Shown: positions 15,067 through 21,435, numbered from the stretch's first letter. The stretch is DNA of 64,000 bases from Giesbergeria sp. (GCA_017985015.1 JAGNYI010000005.1:21041-85040), one strand, 5' to 3'. Numbers and translations: made by a program. The notes: a model not told the origin generated them from the sequence alone.

Positions 15067-18000
15067 ATGACCCAGGGACAGATCCGCATCCGCGGCGCGC
15101 GCCAGCACAACCTCCGGAATCTGGACCTGGACATCAACACTGGCGAGCTCACCGTCGTCACCGGCCCCAGCGGCTCGGGCAAATCCAGCCTCGTGTTCGA
15201 CACGCTCTATGCCGAAGGGCAGCGGCGCTATGTGGAAACCTTCAGCGCCTACGCGCGCCAGTTTCTCGACCGGATGGACAAACCGGCGGTGGACAACTTG
15301 GAGGGCGTGCCCCCCGCAATCGCCATCGACCAGACCAACCCGGTGCGCAGCTCGCGCTCGACCGTGGGCACGATGACCGAGCTGAACGACCACCTCAAAC
15401 TGTTGTTCGCCCGCGCTGGCCAGTTGTTTGACCGCGAGACGGCGCAGCCTGTGCGCCACGATTCGCCTGAAACCATCTATGCCGAACTGCTGGCGCGAAG
15501 CGGTGGGACCGAGCCAGCGCCGGGCCGCCCCAAGCTGGCGAGCGCCCCCTTGGGGGGCAGCGAGGACACGCCAGTGCCGAGTGTGGGGGCCACTGAGCCA
15601 GCGCCGGGCCGCCCCAAGCTGGCGAGCGCCCCCTTGGGGGGCAGCGAGGACACGCCAGTGCCGAGCGTGGGGGCCACCGAGCCAGCGCCGGGCCGCCCCA
15701 AGCTGGCGAGCGCCCCCTTGGGGGGCAGCGAGGACACGCCAGTGCCGAGCGTGGGGGCACTCGACCACCGCCTGGTGGTGACCTTTCCTGTCGAACTGCC
15801 CGCCAATACCAGCGCCGAGCAGGTCACCGAGTGGCTGTCGGCCAGCGGTTTCACCAAGATTCAGGCCGAGCGAGAAGCCGGGGGGGTCAAGCTTCTGGAC
15901 GTCGTGGCGGACCGCTTTCGCATGGCCAGTGTCGAGAAATCGCGTGCCATTGAGGCCATTGAAGTGGCGCTCAAGCGCAGTGGCCGAATGGCGGTCTACC
16001 GGCTGGTGGATAACGCCGAGGCCGAGATCTGGCAGTTCTCTACCGGGCTGCATTGCCCGGACAGCAACCTGCGCTACAGCGAACCGCTGCCGTCGATGTT
16101 CTCGTTCAACTCGCCGGCCGGTGCCTGTGAGACCTGCCGGGGCTTTGGGCGGGTGATTGGCGTGGACTACGGCCTGGTGATTCCCGACCCCAAGAAAACG
16201 CTGCGGGCTGGCGCCATCAAGACGCTGCAAACCCCCGCCTGGAAAGAAGCGCAGGACGACCTCATGCGCCATGCCGAGGCCGCCGGCATTCCACGTGACA
16301 CCGCCTGGAACCGCCTGACTCCCGAGCAGCAGCAGTGGGTGATTGGCGGTTCGCCCAACTGGAAGGGCAAGTGGAACCAGCAGTGGTACGGCATTGCGCG
16401 CTTCTTTGAATACCTGGAGAGCAAGGCCTACAAGATGCATATCCGTGTGCTGCTGTCCAAGTACCGCAGCTACACGCAGTGCCCGACCTGCGCCGGAGCG
16501 CGGCTCAAAACCGAGAGCCTGCTCTGGCGCATCGGCAGCAAGGCGGATGCCGACGCGGTGCTGCCGCCTGCGCAGCGTTTCATGCCGCAAGGCGTGGCCT
16601 GGAGCCGTGAGCAGTTGGAGGCGCTGCCGGGGCTGTGCCTGCACGATTTGATGCTGCTGCCGCTCAGCCGGGTGCGCAGCTTCTTTGAGCGGCTGTCGAA
16701 AAATACTACGAAGTTGATAGCTGATGGCGCATATGGGATAAGCGCTGGAGGCCAATCTGACCAAAAAATTGAGGCATCAGAGGCGCCTGCACCCTCCGCC
16801 AGCGCCGCACGTGAGAGCGGCGACGCCCAGGCGCTCAAGCTCTTGCACGAGGAAATCGGCACGCGCCTGAAGTACCTGGACGAAGTCGGCATCGGCTACC
16901 TCACGCTGGACCGGCAAAGCCGCACGCTCTCGGGCGGCGAGGTGCAGCGCATCAACCTGACCACGGCGCTGGGCACGTCGCTTGTCAACACGCTGTTCGT
17001 GTTGGACGAGCCCAGCATCGGCCTGCACCCGCGCGACATGCACCGCATCACCGAGGCCATGCTGCGCCTGCGCGATGCCGGCAACACGCTGGTGGTGGTG
17101 GAGCACGACCCGGCCGTCATGCTGGCCGCCGACCGCGTGCTCGACTTCGGCCCCGGCCCGGGCGAGCGCGGCGGGCAGATCGTGTTCGACGGCACGCCCG
17201 ACGAACTGCGCCGCGCCGACACCCTTACTGGCCAGTACCTGGGGGGGCGCAAGCACGTGGGCCTGCCTTTCGCCCGCAAGGTGACGGACGCCACGCCGCG
17301 CCTCGTCCTGGAGGGCGCGCGCGAGCACAACCTGAAGAACATCACGGTGGACTTCCCGCTGCAGCGCCTGGTGACCGTCACCGGCGTCAGCGGCTCGGGC
17401 AAATCCAGCCTGATTCAGGATGTGCTGGCGCCCGCCCTTATGCGCCACTTTGGCAAGGCGACAGAAACGCCGGGCGCCCACGACCGCCTGCTGGGCGCGG
17501 ACCACCTCTCGGACGTGGTGTTTGTCGACCAGTCGCCCATCGGCAAGACGGCGCGCTCCAACCCGGTCAGCTACGTCGGTGCCTGGGATTCCATCCGCGA
17601 ACTCTTCGCCGCCGCTCCGCTGTCGCGCGAGCGCGGTTACACCGCCAGCAAATTCAGCTTCAACAGCGGCGACGGACGCTGCCCGACCTGCGGCGGCTCG
17701 GGCTTCGAGCATGTGGAGATGCAGTTCCTCAGCGACGTGTATCTGCGCTGCCCCGACTGCGACGGCAAGCGCTACCGCCCGGAAATCCTCGAAGTCACCA
17801 TCACCCGCAAGGCCGTGGCGGCGCACGCCGAATCATCTCCTGATGTCTCGCTGTCGGTGGCGGACGTGCTTGCGCTCACGGTGAGCGAAGCGGTGGCACT
17901 CTTTGCCAATGACCGCGAAGTGCTGCGGGCGCTGGCGCCCATTGTCGAGGTGGGGCTGGAGTACGTGAAGCTGGGCCAGCCGGTGCCGACGCTCAGCGGC

Positions 18001-21000: not shown

Positions 21001-21435
21001 GAAGCGCAGCGCATCAAGCTCGTCACCGAGCTGACCAAGGTGCGCGACCGAGATGGCCCCCTCGTCGTTCCTTCTGACGACGGTCCCCCCGAGGGGGACG
21101 CAGCCTTGCTTGGGAGCGGCCCGGCGCTGCGGCTGGGCCGGCGCGGTCAAAAGGCGCCGCACACGCTGTATGTGCTCGACGAGCCCACGGTCGGCCTGCA
21201 CATGGCCGATGTCGATCGCCTGATTCGCGTGCTGCACCGCCTGGTGGGCGCGGGCCACAGCGTGGTCGTCATCGAGCACGACCTGGACGTGATCGCCGAA
21301 GCCGACTGGGTGCTGGACCTGGGCCCAGAGGGTGGCAGCGGCGGCGGGCGCATCGTGGCGGCCGGCACGCCAGAGGACGTGGTGCGCGCCGGCACGCCCA
21401 CTGGGGTGGCACTGGCGCCGGTGCTGGTGCGCTGA
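15067..21435 (+). CDS. fused double UvrA-like ABC ATPase (two complete UvrA units, four ABC modules)
   Basis: Four Walker A motifs (GPSGSGKSS, then [10 protein letters not shown] three times). Four LSGGE(A/V)QR signatures. Four (F/Y)(V/L)(L/F)DEP Walker B motifs. Zn-finger Cys pairs CETC, CPTC and CPDC. ATG at 15067. Confidence 0.9.
15511..15762. repeat. tandem array, 3 x 84 bp, F2-related subfamily, in-frame in the UvrA-like gene
   Basis: Units start at 15511, 15595 and 15679 and differ at only a few bases. Each encodes [27 protein letters not shown](T/L). Confidence 0.95.
16699..16772 (+). repeat. F1 element copy B (forward, in-frame in the UvrA-like gene)
   Basis: TTGATAGCTGATGGCGCATATGGGATAAGCGCTGGAGGCCAATCTGACC. 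Encodes [18 protein letters not shown]. Confidence 0.85.
20132..20203 (+). repeat. F1 element copy C (forward, in-frame in the UvrA-like gene)
   Basis: ATGCTTCTGATTTGATAGCTGCTAGCGAAGACGGGATAAGCGCTGGAGGCCAAAAAGGCTCGAAATCTG. Encodes [15 protein letters not shown]. Confidence 0.85.
20423..20494. repeat. single copy of the F2-related unit seen in the 15511 array, in-frame in the UvrA-like gene
   Basis: GGGCCGCCCCAAGG..CCCCCCTTGGGGGGCAGCGAGGACACGCAGTGCGGAGCGAGGGGGC. Confidence 0.75.
21055..21125. repeat. F2 element copy, in-frame in the UvrA-like gene between ABC signature and Walker B
   Basis: CCCCTCgTCGTtccttctgACGAcggtCCCCCCGAGGGGGACGCAGCCTTGCTTGGGAGCGGCCC. The 3' half matches copy a at 711-743. 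Confidence 0.65.

What the first reader, a model, noticed from the sequence alone, without database searches (positions are those of the whole stretch)
15067..21435. Giant fused double UvrA (four ABC modules) that has absorbed seven in-frame repeat insertions
The ORF is about 2120 codons long and contains two complete UvrA-like units in tandem, joined near codon 1100. It has four Walker A motifs, four LSGGE signatures and four Walker B motifs. The halves are not equivalent. Half 1 keeps a long region between the CETC and CPTC Cys pairs ([17 protein letters not shown]...), which looks like an insertion domain. Half 2 has only about 45 residues between CPDC and CPTC, but keeps a segment resembling the class I UvrB-binding region ([16 protein letters not shown]...RVDGNFV). 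The ORF also carries three tandem F2-type units, one further F2-type unit, one F2 copy and two F1 copies, all in-frame. I recall that duplicated UvrA paralogues are noted in UvrA family surveys as a separate class of unknown function. The repeat load here is unusual for an intact gene.
Basis: partly seen in the sequence, partly recalled or inferred. Interest (0 to 1): 0.7.

Follow-up and report, generated by a model that had tools for sequence, protein, structure and literature searches.

The report
Double UvrA gene carrying in-frame repeats
An intact, strongly conserved gene for a double-length DNA-repair protein (two UvrA units fused) has taken up five insertions (seven units) of two short genomic repeat families in its loops without breaking the reading frame; fused UvrA proteins and repeat-carrying uvrA genes are both already described, so this is a striking example of a known kind.

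Summary
ORF 15067-21435 (+) encodes 2122 aa: two UvrA units, with four each of Walker A, LSGGE, Walker B and H-loop.

The Pfam insertion domain is found only in half 1. The Pfam UvrB-binding domain is found only in half 2. Half 1 keeps a degenerate homologue of it.

The gene belongs to a large family: at least 594 Burkholderiales loci, and more than 100 distant clusters of double-length UvrA. It is under strong purifying selection (dN/dS 0.07-0.09). It is a paralogue: Xenophilus aerolatus carries it alongside a canonical 1036-aa UvrA.

The seven repeat units are five insertion events.
- F1 (about 72 nt) sits at two sites. These are old and evolve neutrally.
- F2 (84 nt, open in all six frames) sits at three sites. 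These are young and absent from relatives at 91% identity or less. One has amplified to three tandem copies, where a 99.7%-identical contig has two.

All five sites fall between blocks that align to solved UvrA structures.

Both repeat families are dispersed. F1 is also in-frame in glmU, a tlyA-like gene and a HAD hydrolase gene in this window. F2 occurs in many unrelated proteins, and in the same loop of a canonical UvrA.

Multiple REPs inside uvrA genes were reported in 2013. Verdict: real and well preserved, but a new member of known kinds.

The parts
15067..21435 (+). Complete ORF of the double UvrA paralogue: 2122 aa plus stop.
   Evidence: Full-length orthologues at 63-98% identity. dN/dS 0.07-0.09.
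15067..18354 (+). Half 1 (aa 1-1096), a UvrA unit with two NBDs. Zn module 1 is absent; Zn2 and Zn3 are present.
   Evidence: TIGR00630 887 bits. Aligns to class I UvrA 3ZQJ at 715 bits. Motif conservation.
15439..16044 (+). Diverged UvrB-binding-like domain of half 1 (aa 125-147 plus 232-326), interrupted by the F2 array.
   Evidence: No Pfam PF17760 match, but hhalign to the half-2 domain gives probability 97.8%, E 1e-12. dN/dS 0.17. It is the only region of the failed AF2 model with pLDDT around 70-80.
15508..15759 (+). F2 repeat, three tandem 84-nt units (aa 148-231), read as [28 protein letters not shown] three times.
   Evidence: TRF 3.0 copies, 98% matches. A 252-nt gap in L081 and L082. 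Two units in the 99.7%-identical contig L083. One unit at the same site in P0008, P0011-14, P0016 and L050.
16126..16491 (+). Zn module 2 of half 1 (CETC...CPTC), enclosing the insertion/DNA-binding domain.
   Evidence: PF17755 at aa 367-434. The span is 119-120 aa in 79 of 81 sequences.
16703..16797 (+). F1 repeat copy a, in frame (…[22 protein letters not shown]…) with an adjoining variable stretch. It lies in a loop of signature domain I.
   Evidence: The ancestral site is 30 aa long in Burkholderia, Cupriavidus and Rubrivivax. The copy is shared with relatives down to about 77-79% identity. F1 segments have dN/dS 0.65-1.4.
18355..18453 (+). Linker of about 33 aa between the two UvrA units ([33 protein letters not shown]).
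   Evidence: Lies between the end of the half-1 and the start of the half-2 alignments to solved UvrA structures.
18454..21432 (+). Half 2 (aa 1130-2122), a UvrA unit with two NBDs. Zn1 is the variant H-C…CxxC; Zn2 and Zn3 are present.
   Evidence: TIGR00630 960 bits. Aligns to class I UvrA 9GXK at 762 bits. Motif conservation.
18841..19158 (+). Canonical-type UvrB-binding domain of half 2 (aa 1259-1364).
   Evidence: PF17760 at 96 bits, E 1.5e-27. For comparison, 105.6 bits in a true canonical UvrA.
19321..19473 (+). Zn module 2 of half 2 (CPDC...CPTC) with only 47 aa between the Cys pairs. The insertion domain is missing.
   Evidence: In one search about 90 aa of half 2 replace about 162 aa of canonical UvrA.
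20132..20203 (+). F1 repeat copy b, in frame (…[21 protein letters not shown]…), in the flexible linker between NBD-I and NBD-II of half 2.
   Evidence: It falls between aligned blocks 564 and 613 of half 2. This linker is the most variable site in the family, at 9-84 aa.
20413..20496 (+). F2 repeat, single direct copy of 84 nt, read in a different frame from the array ([28 protein letters not shown]).
   Evidence: An 84-nt gap in L081. Present only in the window, P0001 and P0002 among close relatives. Falls between aligned blocks of NBD-II.
21053..21133 (-). F2-family repeat, reverse orientation, 81 nt (read on + as [27 protein letters not shown]). It lies in the loop between the signature helix and Walker B of the last NBD.
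   Evidence: 76 of 80 orthologues have the 24-aa uninterrupted form. Present only in the window, P0001 and P0002.

Best explanation
SHOWN
- The ORF is a functional member of the tandem-duplicated UvrA paralogue family of Burkholderiales, named 'excinuclease ABC subunit UvrA' by annotators.
- One chain holds two UvrA units, with all four ATPase sites and both C-terminal zinc fingers intact.
- The accessory domains are complementary. The DNA-clamping insertion domain survives only in half 1. A canonical UvrB-binding domain survives only in half 2.
- In relatives the gene coexists with an ordinary UvrA.

INFERRED
- The chain folds as an intramolecular pseudo-dimer equivalent to a UvrA2 dimer.
- It senses distorted DNA and can dock a single UvrB. 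Docking would use the half-2 UvrB-binding domain together with the signature-II domain of half 1.
- That would make it an asymmetric accessory damage sensor working beside the canonical UvrA.

THE REPEATS
- The seven units are passengers, not new functional domains.
- They stem from five insertions of two dispersed short-repeat families: F1 (about 72 nt, a hairpin-type REP-like element) and F2 (84 nt, GC-rich, open in all six frames, prone to tandem amplification).
- These insertions survived for three reasons. Their lengths are multiples of three. They carry no stop in the frame that is read. They landed in flexible connections between conserved structural blocks.
- The F1 insertions are old and now drift neutrally.
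- The F2 insertions are recent, polymorphic among close relatives and variable in copy number.
For: Identity and family
- (Pfam, NCBIfam).
- at least 594 related loci; the 80 kept are all Burkholderiales or unclassified beta/proteobacterial MAGs.
- 98-75% identical proteins, all named UvrA.
- more than 100 of the best 150 cluster representatives at 50% identity are 1550-2340 aa long.

Functional constraint
- dN/dS 0.094 and 0.075 against L082 and L081, similar in both halves.
- catalytic motifs are kept in 78-81 of 81 sequences.

Conserved asymmetry
-.

Paralogue status
- the canonical UvrA P0327 of Xenophilus aerolatus lies on a 5,602,785-bp contig.
- that is the length of CP166702.1, which carries double-UvrA locus L001.
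- C. metallidurans uvrA2 on CHR2 is described as a paralogue of a CHR1 gene.

One-UvrB geometry
[quoted passage not shown] An Mt-UvrA2:UvrB:DNA complex exists.

Repeats as insertions
- empty sites in outgroups; exact gains of 252, 84 and 81 nt.

Repeats as dispersed families
- ten F1 copies in the window.
- F2 peptides lie inside MoxR, MoaE, FdhD, an AEC transporter, a transglycosylase and other proteins.
- 78 exact F2 cores in 74 metagenome loci. By a GC3 heuristic 14 lie inside other genes and 55 are intergenic, at gene edges or unclear.
- F1 is in frame in glmU, a tlyA-like gene and a HAD hydrolase gene.

Passenger status
- dN/dS of the F1 segments is 0.65-1.4.
- all six frames of F2 are open.
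- 3 versus 2 units in a 99.7%-identical contig.
- every site lies between blocks aligned to solved structures.
- the NBD-I/NBD-II connection is a flexible loop.

Precedent
- REPs at multiple sites in uvrA genes of Thioalkalivibrio and Opitutus.
Against: - There is no expression or protein evidence.
- The pseudo-dimer fold and UvrB docking are untested.
- A canonical uvrA could not be checked in the window's own genome.
- The two young F2 inserts differ at 1 of 175 positions between the window and L082. The rest of the gene differs at 343 of 5939 (p 7e-4). That could mean constraint or homogenisation of the repeat DNA. The contrast is inflated by recombinant tracts in the flanks.
- uvrA hosts 5 of the 8 coding insertion events seen in the window, yet it is about 11.5% of the coding DNA (post hoc binomial about 8e-4). 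F2 also hit the homologous loop of a canonical UvrA. Some targeting or selection therefore cannot be excluded.
- F2 shows no significant hairpin (z from -0.8 to +0.5) and no clear target duplication, so its mode of spread is unknown.
Confidence: 0.72

Rival explanations
1. The inserts are not neutral passengers. NER genes are preferred targets, or insert-bearing alleles are selected, and the added loops tune repair capacity. The clearest candidate is the expandable F2 array in the UvrB-binding-like domain. This is the mutator / anti-mutator idea of Di Nocera et al. 2013.
For: - uvrA holds 5 of 8 coding insertion events in the window.
- 10 of 78 exact F2 cores in metagenomes lie in uvrA-type genes.
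- The same loop of the UvrB-binding domain is occupied in the double UvrA of several lineages and in canonical UvrA of X. azovorans and a V. paradoxus.
- The young F2 inserts are better conserved than the host gene.
- The published view is that REP insertion in UvrABCD genes is unlikely to be fortuitous.
Against: - The F2 search pattern was taken from the uvrA copies, so orthologous copies inflate the count.
- At least five unrelated repeat types occupy the same few loops in different genera. That points to permissive sites, not to a repeat-specific target.
- The DNA flanks of the shared loop differ between the paralogues.
- F1 segments evolve neutrally.
- Presence, absence and copy number vary among near-identical strains.
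- The same peptides occur in unrelated proteins and in several frames.
Confidence: 0.1
2. The double UvrA does not work in UvrB-dependent excision repair. Like class II UvrA proteins (DrrC, Ecm16), it would act alone on DNA, for example by displacing intercalators or other adducts.
For: - It coexists with a canonical UvrA.
- Half 1 lacks Zn module 1, as class II proteins do.
- No LexA-type box lies upstream.
- Class II proteins act without UvrB or UvrC.
Against: - Both halves score much closer to class I than to class II structures: 715-762 bits against 534-548 (DrUvrA2) and 412-440 (Ecm16).
- Half 2 keeps a UvrB-binding domain almost as canonical as that of a true UvrA: 96 against 106 bits. 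It is retained across the family.
Confidence: 0.25
3. The gene is dispensable and decaying. The heavy repeat load would be a sign of relaxed selection on its way to a pseudogene.
For: - It has the highest insertion load among 80 orthologues.
- A canonical UvrA probably covers the essential function.
Against: - dN/dS is 0.07-0.09 in both halves.
- Third-position divergence is 12.7% against 2.1% at positions 1 and 2.
- There are no stops or frameshifts.
- All catalytic and zinc motifs are intact.
- Every insert is a multiple of three.
Confidence: 0.03
4. Part of the pattern is an assembly artefact. The three-unit F2 array, or the two-unit version in L083, could be a mis-assembled tandem repeat.
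For: - The units are 98-99% identical and the array is 252 nt long, which short reads can collapse or expand.
- L083 comes from a low-coverage metagenome assembly.
Against: - Tandem dimers of F2 occur independently in other contigs and in other genes.
- The single-unit state exists at the same site in other lineages.
- The reading frame is preserved in every version.
Confidence: 0.1

Closest known systems
Canonical class I UvrA (e.g. G. stearothermophilus 2R6F, M. tuberculosis 3ZQJ; NCBIfam TIGR00630 / NF001503)
   Same: Each half has the UvrA fold signature: two ABC modules, signature domains, the Zn2 and Zn3 modules and the C-terminal zinc finger. These are the best structural relatives, at 713-762 bits.
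   Different: - One 2122-aa chain in place of a homodimer of chains of about 950 aa.
- Neither half has the full domain set. Half 1 has no Zn1 and only a degenerate UvrB-binding domain. Half 2 has no insertion domain.
- Each half alone is below the NF001503 cutoff (895 and 972 against 1147).
- It coexists with a true canonical UvrA in relatives.
Tandem-duplicated UvrA paralogues of Burkholderiales (e.g. the gene called uvrA2, Rmet_4549, on C. metallidurans CHR2). I recall a 'class III' label from UvrA reviews but could not verify it in the papers held.
   Same: - Full-length orthology at 63-98% identity.
- The same four-NBD layout and the same complementary domain pattern.
- Located on secondary chromosomes in Burkholderia and Cupriavidus.
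   Different: Only the repeat load differs: 195 extra residues against a family median of 25. That Rmet_4549 is the double-length gene is my inference; it was not checked.
Class II UvrA (D. radiodurans UvrA2 2VF7; DrrC; Ecm16 7SH1)
   Same: - A UvrA paralogue that coexists with class I.
- Half 1 also lacks the first zinc module.
   Different: - Class II proteins are single units that lack the UvrB-binding domain altogether.
- Here half 2 keeps a canonical one and half 1 keeps a diverged one.
- Sequence similarity is lower than to class I.
Chlamydia-type long UvrA (NCBIfam NF001885 / PRK00635, 1809-position model)
   Same: Double-length UvrA architecture.
   Different: The score of 1057.6 bits is far below the family cutoff of 3054, so this is a different lineage of duplicated UvrA.
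Intragenic REP / MITE insertions: Rickettsia palindromic elements (Ogata et al. 2000, 2002) and REPs inside uvrA, uvrB, recBCD and polA (Di Nocera et al. 2013, PMC3733652)
   Same: - Short dispersed repeats inserted in frame into unrelated conserved genes.
- They encode 20-30 aa, are often dimers or tandems, and several can sit in one gene.
- uvrA is a recurrent host.
   Different: - Different repeat families and a different host clade (free-living, GC-rich Comamonadaceae).
- F2 shows no significant hairpin and is open in all six frames.
- Up to seven units in one gene, with close relatives that document gain, loss and copy-number change.

Membership tests
UvrA class I (TIGR00630 / NF001503) | Two ABC ATPase modules per unit, each with Walker A, signature LSGGQ/E, Walker B and H-loop | tested here: met
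   Four complete sets in the ORF. Conserved in 78-81 of 81 orthologues.
UvrA class I (TIGR00630 / NF001503) | Profile score above the curated cutoff | tested here: inconclusive
   The whole protein passes both models (1873 and 1839 bits). Each half passes TIGR00630 (887 and 960 against 730) but fails NF001503 (895 and 972 against 1147).
UvrA class I (TIGR00630 / NF001503) | UvrB-binding domain (PF17760) in every protomer | tested here: not met
   Found only at aa 1259-1364 in half 2. Half 1 has a diverged homologue detectable only by profile-profile comparison.
UvrA class I (TIGR00630 / NF001503) | Insertion / DNA-binding domain (PF17755) in every protomer | tested here: not met
   Found only at aa 367-434 in half 1. 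In half 2 the two Cys pairs are 47 aa apart, and 48-50 aa apart across the family.
UvrA class I (TIGR00630 / NF001503) | Three four-Cys zinc modules per protomer | tested here: not met
   Zn1 is absent in half 1 and reduced to H-C…CxxC in half 2. Zn2 and Zn3 are present in both halves.
UvrA class I (TIGR00630 / NF001503) | Damage-dependent loading of UvrB and support of UvrC incision | not testable with these tools
   Needs biochemistry or genetics.
Tandem-duplicated UvrA paralogues of Burkholderiales | Full-length orthology with two UvrA units in one chain | tested here: met
   At least 594 loci, of which 80 were examined at 63-79% identity over aa 1-2122. Proteins reach 98% identity.
Tandem-duplicated UvrA paralogues of Burkholderiales | Complementary accessory-domain pattern: half 1 has a UBD-like domain plus the insertion domain; half 2 has the UvrB-binding domain and no insertion domain | tested here: met
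   It is the commonest layout among distant four-Walker-A representatives.
Tandem-duplicated UvrA paralogues of Burkholderiales | Coexists with a canonical UvrA in the same genome | tested here: inconclusive
Both forms also occur in X. azovorans, V. paradoxus and Pseudacidovorax, though as different strains or species. The window's own genome could not be searched.
Class II UvrA (UvrA2 / DrrC / Ecm16) | Single UvrA unit lacking the UvrB-binding domain and Zn1 | tested here: not met
   Two units are present. Half 2 has PF17760. Similarity to 2VF7 and 7SH1 is lower than to class I.
Chlamydia-type long UvrA (NF001885) | Score above the curated cutoff of 3054 bits | tested here: not met
   1057.6 bits.
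Intragenic REP / MITE-type (RPE-like) insertions | Short, multi-copy, dispersed repeat family | tested here: met
   F1 has 10 copies in 64 kb. F2 has 78 exact cores in 74 metagenome loci, and its peptides occur in at least 10 unrelated protein families.
Intragenic REP / MITE-type (RPE-like) insertions | Precise presence/absence at a site among close relatives, with the frame preserved | tested here: met
   Gains of 252, 84 and 81 nt relative to L081 and L082. The reverse case is an 84-nt F2 present in L081 and L082 but absent at window position 16573.
Intragenic REP / MITE-type (RPE-like) insertions | Palindromic / hairpin structure | tested here: inconclusive
   One intergenic F1 copy folds significantly (z -3.2). 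Another intergenic-position copy and both uvrA copies do not (z -0.4 to +1.1). F2 copies do not either (z -0.8 to +0.5).
Intragenic REP / MITE-type (RPE-like) insertions | Terminal inverted repeats and target-site duplication, or a GTAG / CGTC tag | tested here: inconclusive
   The junctions give no consistent duplication. The only hint is a CCGCG microhomology at the L113 site.
Intragenic REP / MITE-type (RPE-like) insertions | A cognate transposase (RAYT or IS) in the genome | not tested
   Needs the whole genome. The only candidate seen is a transposase-like HTH_32 ORF at 13567-14466 (-).

The most novel reading that the evidence does not exclude
Short repeats in these bacteria do not land in uvrA-type genes by chance. 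Either excision-repair genes are preferred targets, or insert-bearing alleles are selected. In-frame expansion and contraction of the F2 array in the UvrB-binding-like domain (0, 1, 2 or 3 units among close relatives) would then act as a heritable dial on repair or mutation rate. The same loop is hit in both the double and the canonical UvrA, which fits this reading.
Probability: 0.1. Interest if true: 0.65.

Novelty: new member of a known kind. Interest (0 to 1): 0.38.

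Why it matters
The protein itself belongs to a very large family of fused UvrA paralogues that, as far as the papers held show, has not been characterised experimentally. The conserved split of accessory domains predicts a covalent, asymmetric UvrA 'dimer' that can dock only one UvrB. 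That is a natural test case for the old question of whether one or two UvrB molecules are loaded per damage-sensing complex.

The repeat insertions give a free map of about eleven positions where UvrA tolerates 25-85 extra residues. That is useful for tagging and engineering.

Close relatives differ by single insertion events and by 2 versus 3 units. These are ready-made allele pairs for testing the published but untested idea that repeats inside excision-repair genes alter repair capacity.

The window also shows that in-frame 'selfish' repeats, best known from Rickettsia, are common in a free-living, GC-rich betaproteobacterium. Five of the ten F1 copies in this window lie inside genes.

Tried and rejected
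- **AlphaFold2 of half 1.** Run with a 29-sequence alignment, it gave mean pLDDT 39 and pTM 0.27. It is unusable apart from the UvrB-binding-like domain.
- **Rfam.** No family matches F1 or F2. The only hit in the window is a SAH riboswitch.
- **Regulation.** No LexA-type box (CTGT-N8-ACAG) lies upstream, and matches in the window are fewer than chance. No sigma-70-like promoter was found, and terminator-like sites are at chance level.
- **Literature on 'class III UvrA'.** Four searches found class I, IIa and IIb descriptions but no text on the fused class. Two further searches failed on syntax.
- **Target-site duplications.** The junctions at the five sites and in L113 show no consistent duplication or inverted ends.
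- **'F2 inserts are under extra constraint'.** The 1/175 versus 343/5939 contrast is real. I do not rely on it, because one search shows mosaic recombination. Window nt 20070-20400 is identical to L081 and not to L082, which inflates flank divergence.
- **'All coding insertions in the window are in uvrA'.** I held this until searches showed in-frame F1 copies in glmU, a tlyA-like gene and a HAD hydrolase gene. The claim was dropped and the enrichment recomputed.
- **Coding versus intergenic context of metagenomic F2 copies.** This rests on a GC3 heuristic and is only approximate.
- **Gene neighbourhood.** The neighbours are an acetate/solute symporter cluster, a histidine kinase, a response regulator (seen in L082) and an exonuclease. 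They gave no functional clue.

Full report
**1. The observation**

The + strand carries one uninterrupted ORF from 15058 (TTG) or 15067 (ATG) to 21435. From the ATG it is 2122 codons long. The N-terminus [16 protein letters not shown] matches the consensus start of the orthologues.

A motif scan finds exactly four Walker A motifs, four LSGGE signatures, four Walker B motifs and four H-loops. NCBIfam's UvrA model TIGR00630 is passed by each half alone: 887 and 960 bits against a cutoff of 730.

Pfam places the UvrA DNA-binding (insertion) domain only at aa 367-434. It places the UvrA interaction (UvrB-binding) domain only at aa 1259-1364. The two Cys pairs of zinc module 2 are 118 aa apart in half 1 and 47 aa apart in half 2.

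Tandem Repeats Finder reports 3.0 copies of an 84-nt unit at 15508-15758 with 98% matches. A fourth copy in the same orientation lies at 20413-20496. A diverged copy in reverse orientation lies at 21053-21133. Two copies of a second family (F1) lie at 16703-16774 and 20132-20203. The core words of both families occur far more often than in shuffled sequence.

**2. What the protein is**

A scan of one genome per species found at least 594 loci encoding a relative. The best 80 are full-length matches at 63-79% identity. All are Burkholderiales or unclassified beta/proteobacterial MAGs: Comamonadaceae, Rubrivivax and relatives, and Burkholderia and Cupriavidus, where the gene sits on chromosome 2.

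The protein database holds relatives up to 98% identical. Every named one is called excinuclease ABC subunit A or UvrA. The nearest named species is Simplicispira suum at 89%, so the window is probably from that genus or a close one.

An exhaustive profile search with half 1 showed that more than 100 of the best 150 cluster representatives (50% identity) are 1550-2340 aa long with six to eight matched stretches. Fused double UvrAs are therefore a large and old group. This ORF is an ordinary member of one clade of it.

Both halves are closer to solved class I UvrA structures (713-762 bits) than to class II proteins: DrUvrA2 at 534-548 bits and Ecm16 at 412-440 bits. The halves are only about 40% identical to each other. 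The Chlamydia-type long UvrA model is far below its cutoff.

**3. The asymmetry is ancestral and constrained**

Across 81 aligned sequences the catalytic motifs of all four ATPase sites are kept in 78-81.
- Half 1 never has the Cys pairs of zinc module 1. It always has a span of about 119 aa in zinc module 2, which holds the insertion domain.
- Half 2 has an H-C…CxxC variant of zinc module 1. Its zinc module 2 span is only 48-50 aa, so the insertion domain is absent.

Half 1 is not devoid of a UvrB-binding region. Profile-profile comparison shows that aa 125-350 are homologous to the half-2 domain (probability 97.8%, E 1e-12, 26% identity). It is diverged beyond Pfam's reach.

Home-made HMMs run on the distant representatives show that the layout 'half 1: UBD-like plus insertion domain; half 2: UvrB-binding domain, no insertion domain' is the commonest among four-Walker-A proteins.

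**4. The gene is functional and is a paralogue**

Against two close relatives whose DNA I fetched (L082 at 94% and L081 at 91% nucleotide identity), dN/dS is 0.094 and 0.075. The values are similar in both halves. Third positions differ six times more often than first and second positions.

A metagenomic contig that turned up in the repeat search (L113) encodes a true canonical UvrA. It is 1050 aa long, scores 1476 bits on NF001503 against a cutoff of 1147, and has both accessory domains in one chain. Its closest relatives are the 1000-1050-aa UvrAs of Xenophilus, Variovorax and Pseudacidovorax.

One of these, from Xenophilus aerolatus, lies on a contig of 5,602,785 bp. That is exactly the length of chromosome CP166702.1, which also carries the double UvrA (locus L001). 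So at least in that Comamonadaceae genome the two forms coexist. This agrees with the description of uvrA2 on the second chromosome of C. metallidurans as a paralogue of a CHR1 gene. I could not search the window's own genome.

**5. How it most likely works (inferred)**

[quoted passage not shown] The two insertion domains clamp the DNA. An Mt-UvrA2:UvrB:DNA structure with one UvrB is referred to in the same paper (PMC12796330).

A single chain that keeps four active sites and both C-terminal zinc fingers, but only one canonical UvrB-binding domain and one insertion domain, is best read as a covalent pseudo-dimer. It would sense distorted DNA like UvrA2 and dock one UvrB. The 33-residue linker (aa 1097-1129) is the only connection that would have to span the dimer.

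This is inference. No structure prediction of the whole chain was possible, and the half-1 model failed (mean pLDDT 39). The main alternative is a UvrB-independent role like that of class II proteins. It is disfavoured by the well-kept half-2 UvrB-binding domain: 96 bits against 106 in a real UvrA.

**6. The repeats are insertions, of two ages**

Aligned with 80 orthologues, the window has private or near-private extra segments at aa 148-230, 549-577, about 1690-1712, 1785-1812 and 1995-2021.

Close relatives give a time series.
- Both F1 sites are filled in relatives down to about 77-79% identity. Site 2 is empty in the Acidovorax proteins at 76-77% (P0068, P0113).
- The F2 copies at 20413 and 21053 exist only in the window and in proteins at 98% and 94% identity. 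They are absent at 91% identity and below.
- The site-1 F2 array has three units here and two in P0001. It is absent in the 94-86% relatives. One unit is present in several more distant lineages.

DNA alignments give clean gains of 252, 84 and 81 nt. They also show the reverse case: an 84-nt F2 present in L081 and L082, and in more distant metagenomic relatives, but absent from the window at nt 16573. A contig that is 99.7% identical over the gene and 6 kb upstream differs by exactly one 84-nt unit. Short-read collapse is a caveat here.

The gene is also a recombination mosaic. Window nt 20070-20400 is identical to L081 but differs from L082 at about 47 positions.

**7. What the repeats are**

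*F1* is about 72 nt long, AT-richer than the genome, and has a core hairpin CCAGCGCTTA…TAAGCGCTGG. One intergenic copy folds significantly (z -3.2). The uvrA copies have lost the stem.

The window holds ten copies. Five look intergenic. Five are in frame inside genes:
- two in uvrA;
- one in glmU (TIGR01173 at 568 bits; the protein is 24 aa longer than the model);
- one in a TlyA/FtsJ-type methyltransferase gene;
- one, in reverse orientation, in a HAD-type hydrolase gene.

*F2* is 84 nt long and GC-rich. It is open in all six frames and shows no significant fold. A search with its six translations found the peptides inside MoxR-type AAA ATPases, MoaE, FdhD, an AEC transporter, a transglycosylase and other proteins. 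It also found them at the ends of HIT and ABC proteins in Acidovorax, Ramlibacter, Variovorax and Oryzisolibacter, sometimes as tandem dimers.

Its exact 24-nt core occurs 78 times in 74 metagenome contigs. By a GC3 heuristic, 55 of these are intergenic, at gene edges or unclear; 14 lie inside other genes; 9 are in double uvrA genes; and 1 is in the canonical uvrA of L113.

Both families are therefore dispersed REP/MITE-like repeats, not features of uvrA.

**8. Why they are tolerated**

Every insert falls between blocks that align to solved UvrA structures:
- site 1 lies in the first helix-to-strand loop of the mobile UvrB-binding-type domain;
- F1a lies in a loop of signature domain I, which is 30 aa long in the ancestral state;
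- F1b lies in the NBD-I/NBD-II linker, described as a flexible loop in MtUvrA;
- the last two lie in loops of NBD-II.

Other genera carry unrelated repeat translations at the same few places. Examples are PSPAGGGLGWG…SPHPNLPPEGEGA, SLRAQRGNPGLPGA… and LGSDPNF types. Two orthologues have six inserts each. This pattern fits a filter of permissive loops.

The F1 segments evolve at dN/dS 0.65-1.4 while the host gene is at 0.07-0.09. That is what is expected of spacer sequence.

**9. What remains odd**

uvrA holds five of the eight independent coding insertions seen in the window, although it is about 11.5% of the coding DNA (post hoc binomial about 8e-4).

The same loop of the UvrB-binding domain carries F2 in three settings: the double UvrA of several lineages; canonical UvrA of X. 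azovorans; and one V. paradoxus protein whose insert peptide is identical although the protein is only 89% identical overall.

The young F2 inserts are nearly identical between the window and L082 (1 difference in 175 nt). The contrast with the host gene is partly explained by recombinant flanks.

Di Nocera and colleagues already reported REPs at several sites in uvrA genes of Thioalkalivibrio and Opitutus and in other NER and recombination genes. They argued that this is unlikely to be fortuitous (PMC3733652). My data neither prove nor exclude that. I give it 10%.

**10. Comparison and verdict**

The protein is an already annotated, widespread, but apparently uncharacterised type of UvrA paralogue. 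In-frame repeat insertions are known from Rickettsia, and specifically in uvrA.

What is new here is the host clade, the two repeat families, the number of units in one intact gene, and the set of close relatives that document gain, loss and amplification. I rate it a new member of known kinds, with interest 0.38.

Noticed in passing
window 57576-59006 (+), repeat at 57742-57813: The essential gene glmU (TIGR01173 at 568 bits) carries an in-frame F1 copy, read as EAACAGAISAGGQFDLKF. The protein is 476 aa against a 452-position model.
   Followed up: partly
window 44072-44857 (+), repeat at 44490-44561: A TlyA-like rRNA methyltransferase gene (S4 plus FtsJ domains) carries an in-frame F1 copy, DASDLIAACADGISAEGQFDLKF. 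It uses the same reading frame as the uvrA and glmU copies.
   Followed up: partly
window 38463-39413 (-), repeat at 38973-39044: A HAD/Cof-type hydrolase ORF contains an F1 copy in reverse orientation, read as QRISDEIGLQRLSDKRRQLSKIYQ. The Pfam Hydrolase_3 match stops at the edge of the repeat.
   Followed up: partly
L113:325-3477 (+), repeat at about 835-918: A canonical class I UvrA (1050 aa, close to Xenophilus azovorans) has an in-frame 84-nt F2 insert. It sits in the loop of the UvrB-binding domain that is homologous to site 1 of the window's double UvrA. The identical insert peptide occurs in one Variovorax paradoxus UvrA that is only 89% identical overall. Twenty-two other canonical UvrAs have the site empty.
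   Followed up: yes
L081 and L082, at the positions matching window nt 16573 and about 17815-17845: Close relatives carry an extra 84-nt F2 copy that the window lacks. They also carry a third repeat type (…TTGGGGTCAGACTCCAATT…, translated LGSDSNL) where the window has only a short remnant. So repeats are lost from this gene as well as gained.
   Followed up: partly
window 20070-20400: A recombination mosaic lies inside the gene. This stretch is identical to the 91%-identical relative L081, but differs at about 47 positions from the otherwise closer relative L082. The tract ends next to the F2 insert that L081 lacks.
   Followed up: partly
window 11946-14936: About 3 kb lies between the periplasmic-binding-protein gene and uvrA. 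It holds an MFS transporter gene, a transposase-like HTH_32 ORF on the minus strand and a 155-aa ORF with no family match. It is absent from relatives L081 and L082 but present in the 99.7%-identical contig L083, so it is probably a recent insertion.
   Followed up: partly
window 42296-42416 (+): A SAH riboswitch (Rfam RF01057, 48.9 bits) lies at the start of the S-adenosylhomocysteine hydrolase ORF (stop-to-stop 42390-43919). This is the expected arrangement.
   Followed up: partly
window 2734-2768 and 2852-2886: A 35-nt stretch that looks like a gene start (ATGTTTAAAAAAAT.CTGATTGC…CGCGGTGA, i.e. MFKKILIA.RGE) occurs twice, 118 nt apart, at 91% identity. It lies at the head of the 706-aa stop-to-stop ORF.
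   Followed up: no
window 7282-7353, 30145-30216, 34549-34620, 55956-55976 (-), 59854-59925: These are the remaining F1 copies. They lie between genes in divergent, convergent and tandem contexts alike, so there is no consistent position relative to promoters or terminators.
   Followed up: partly
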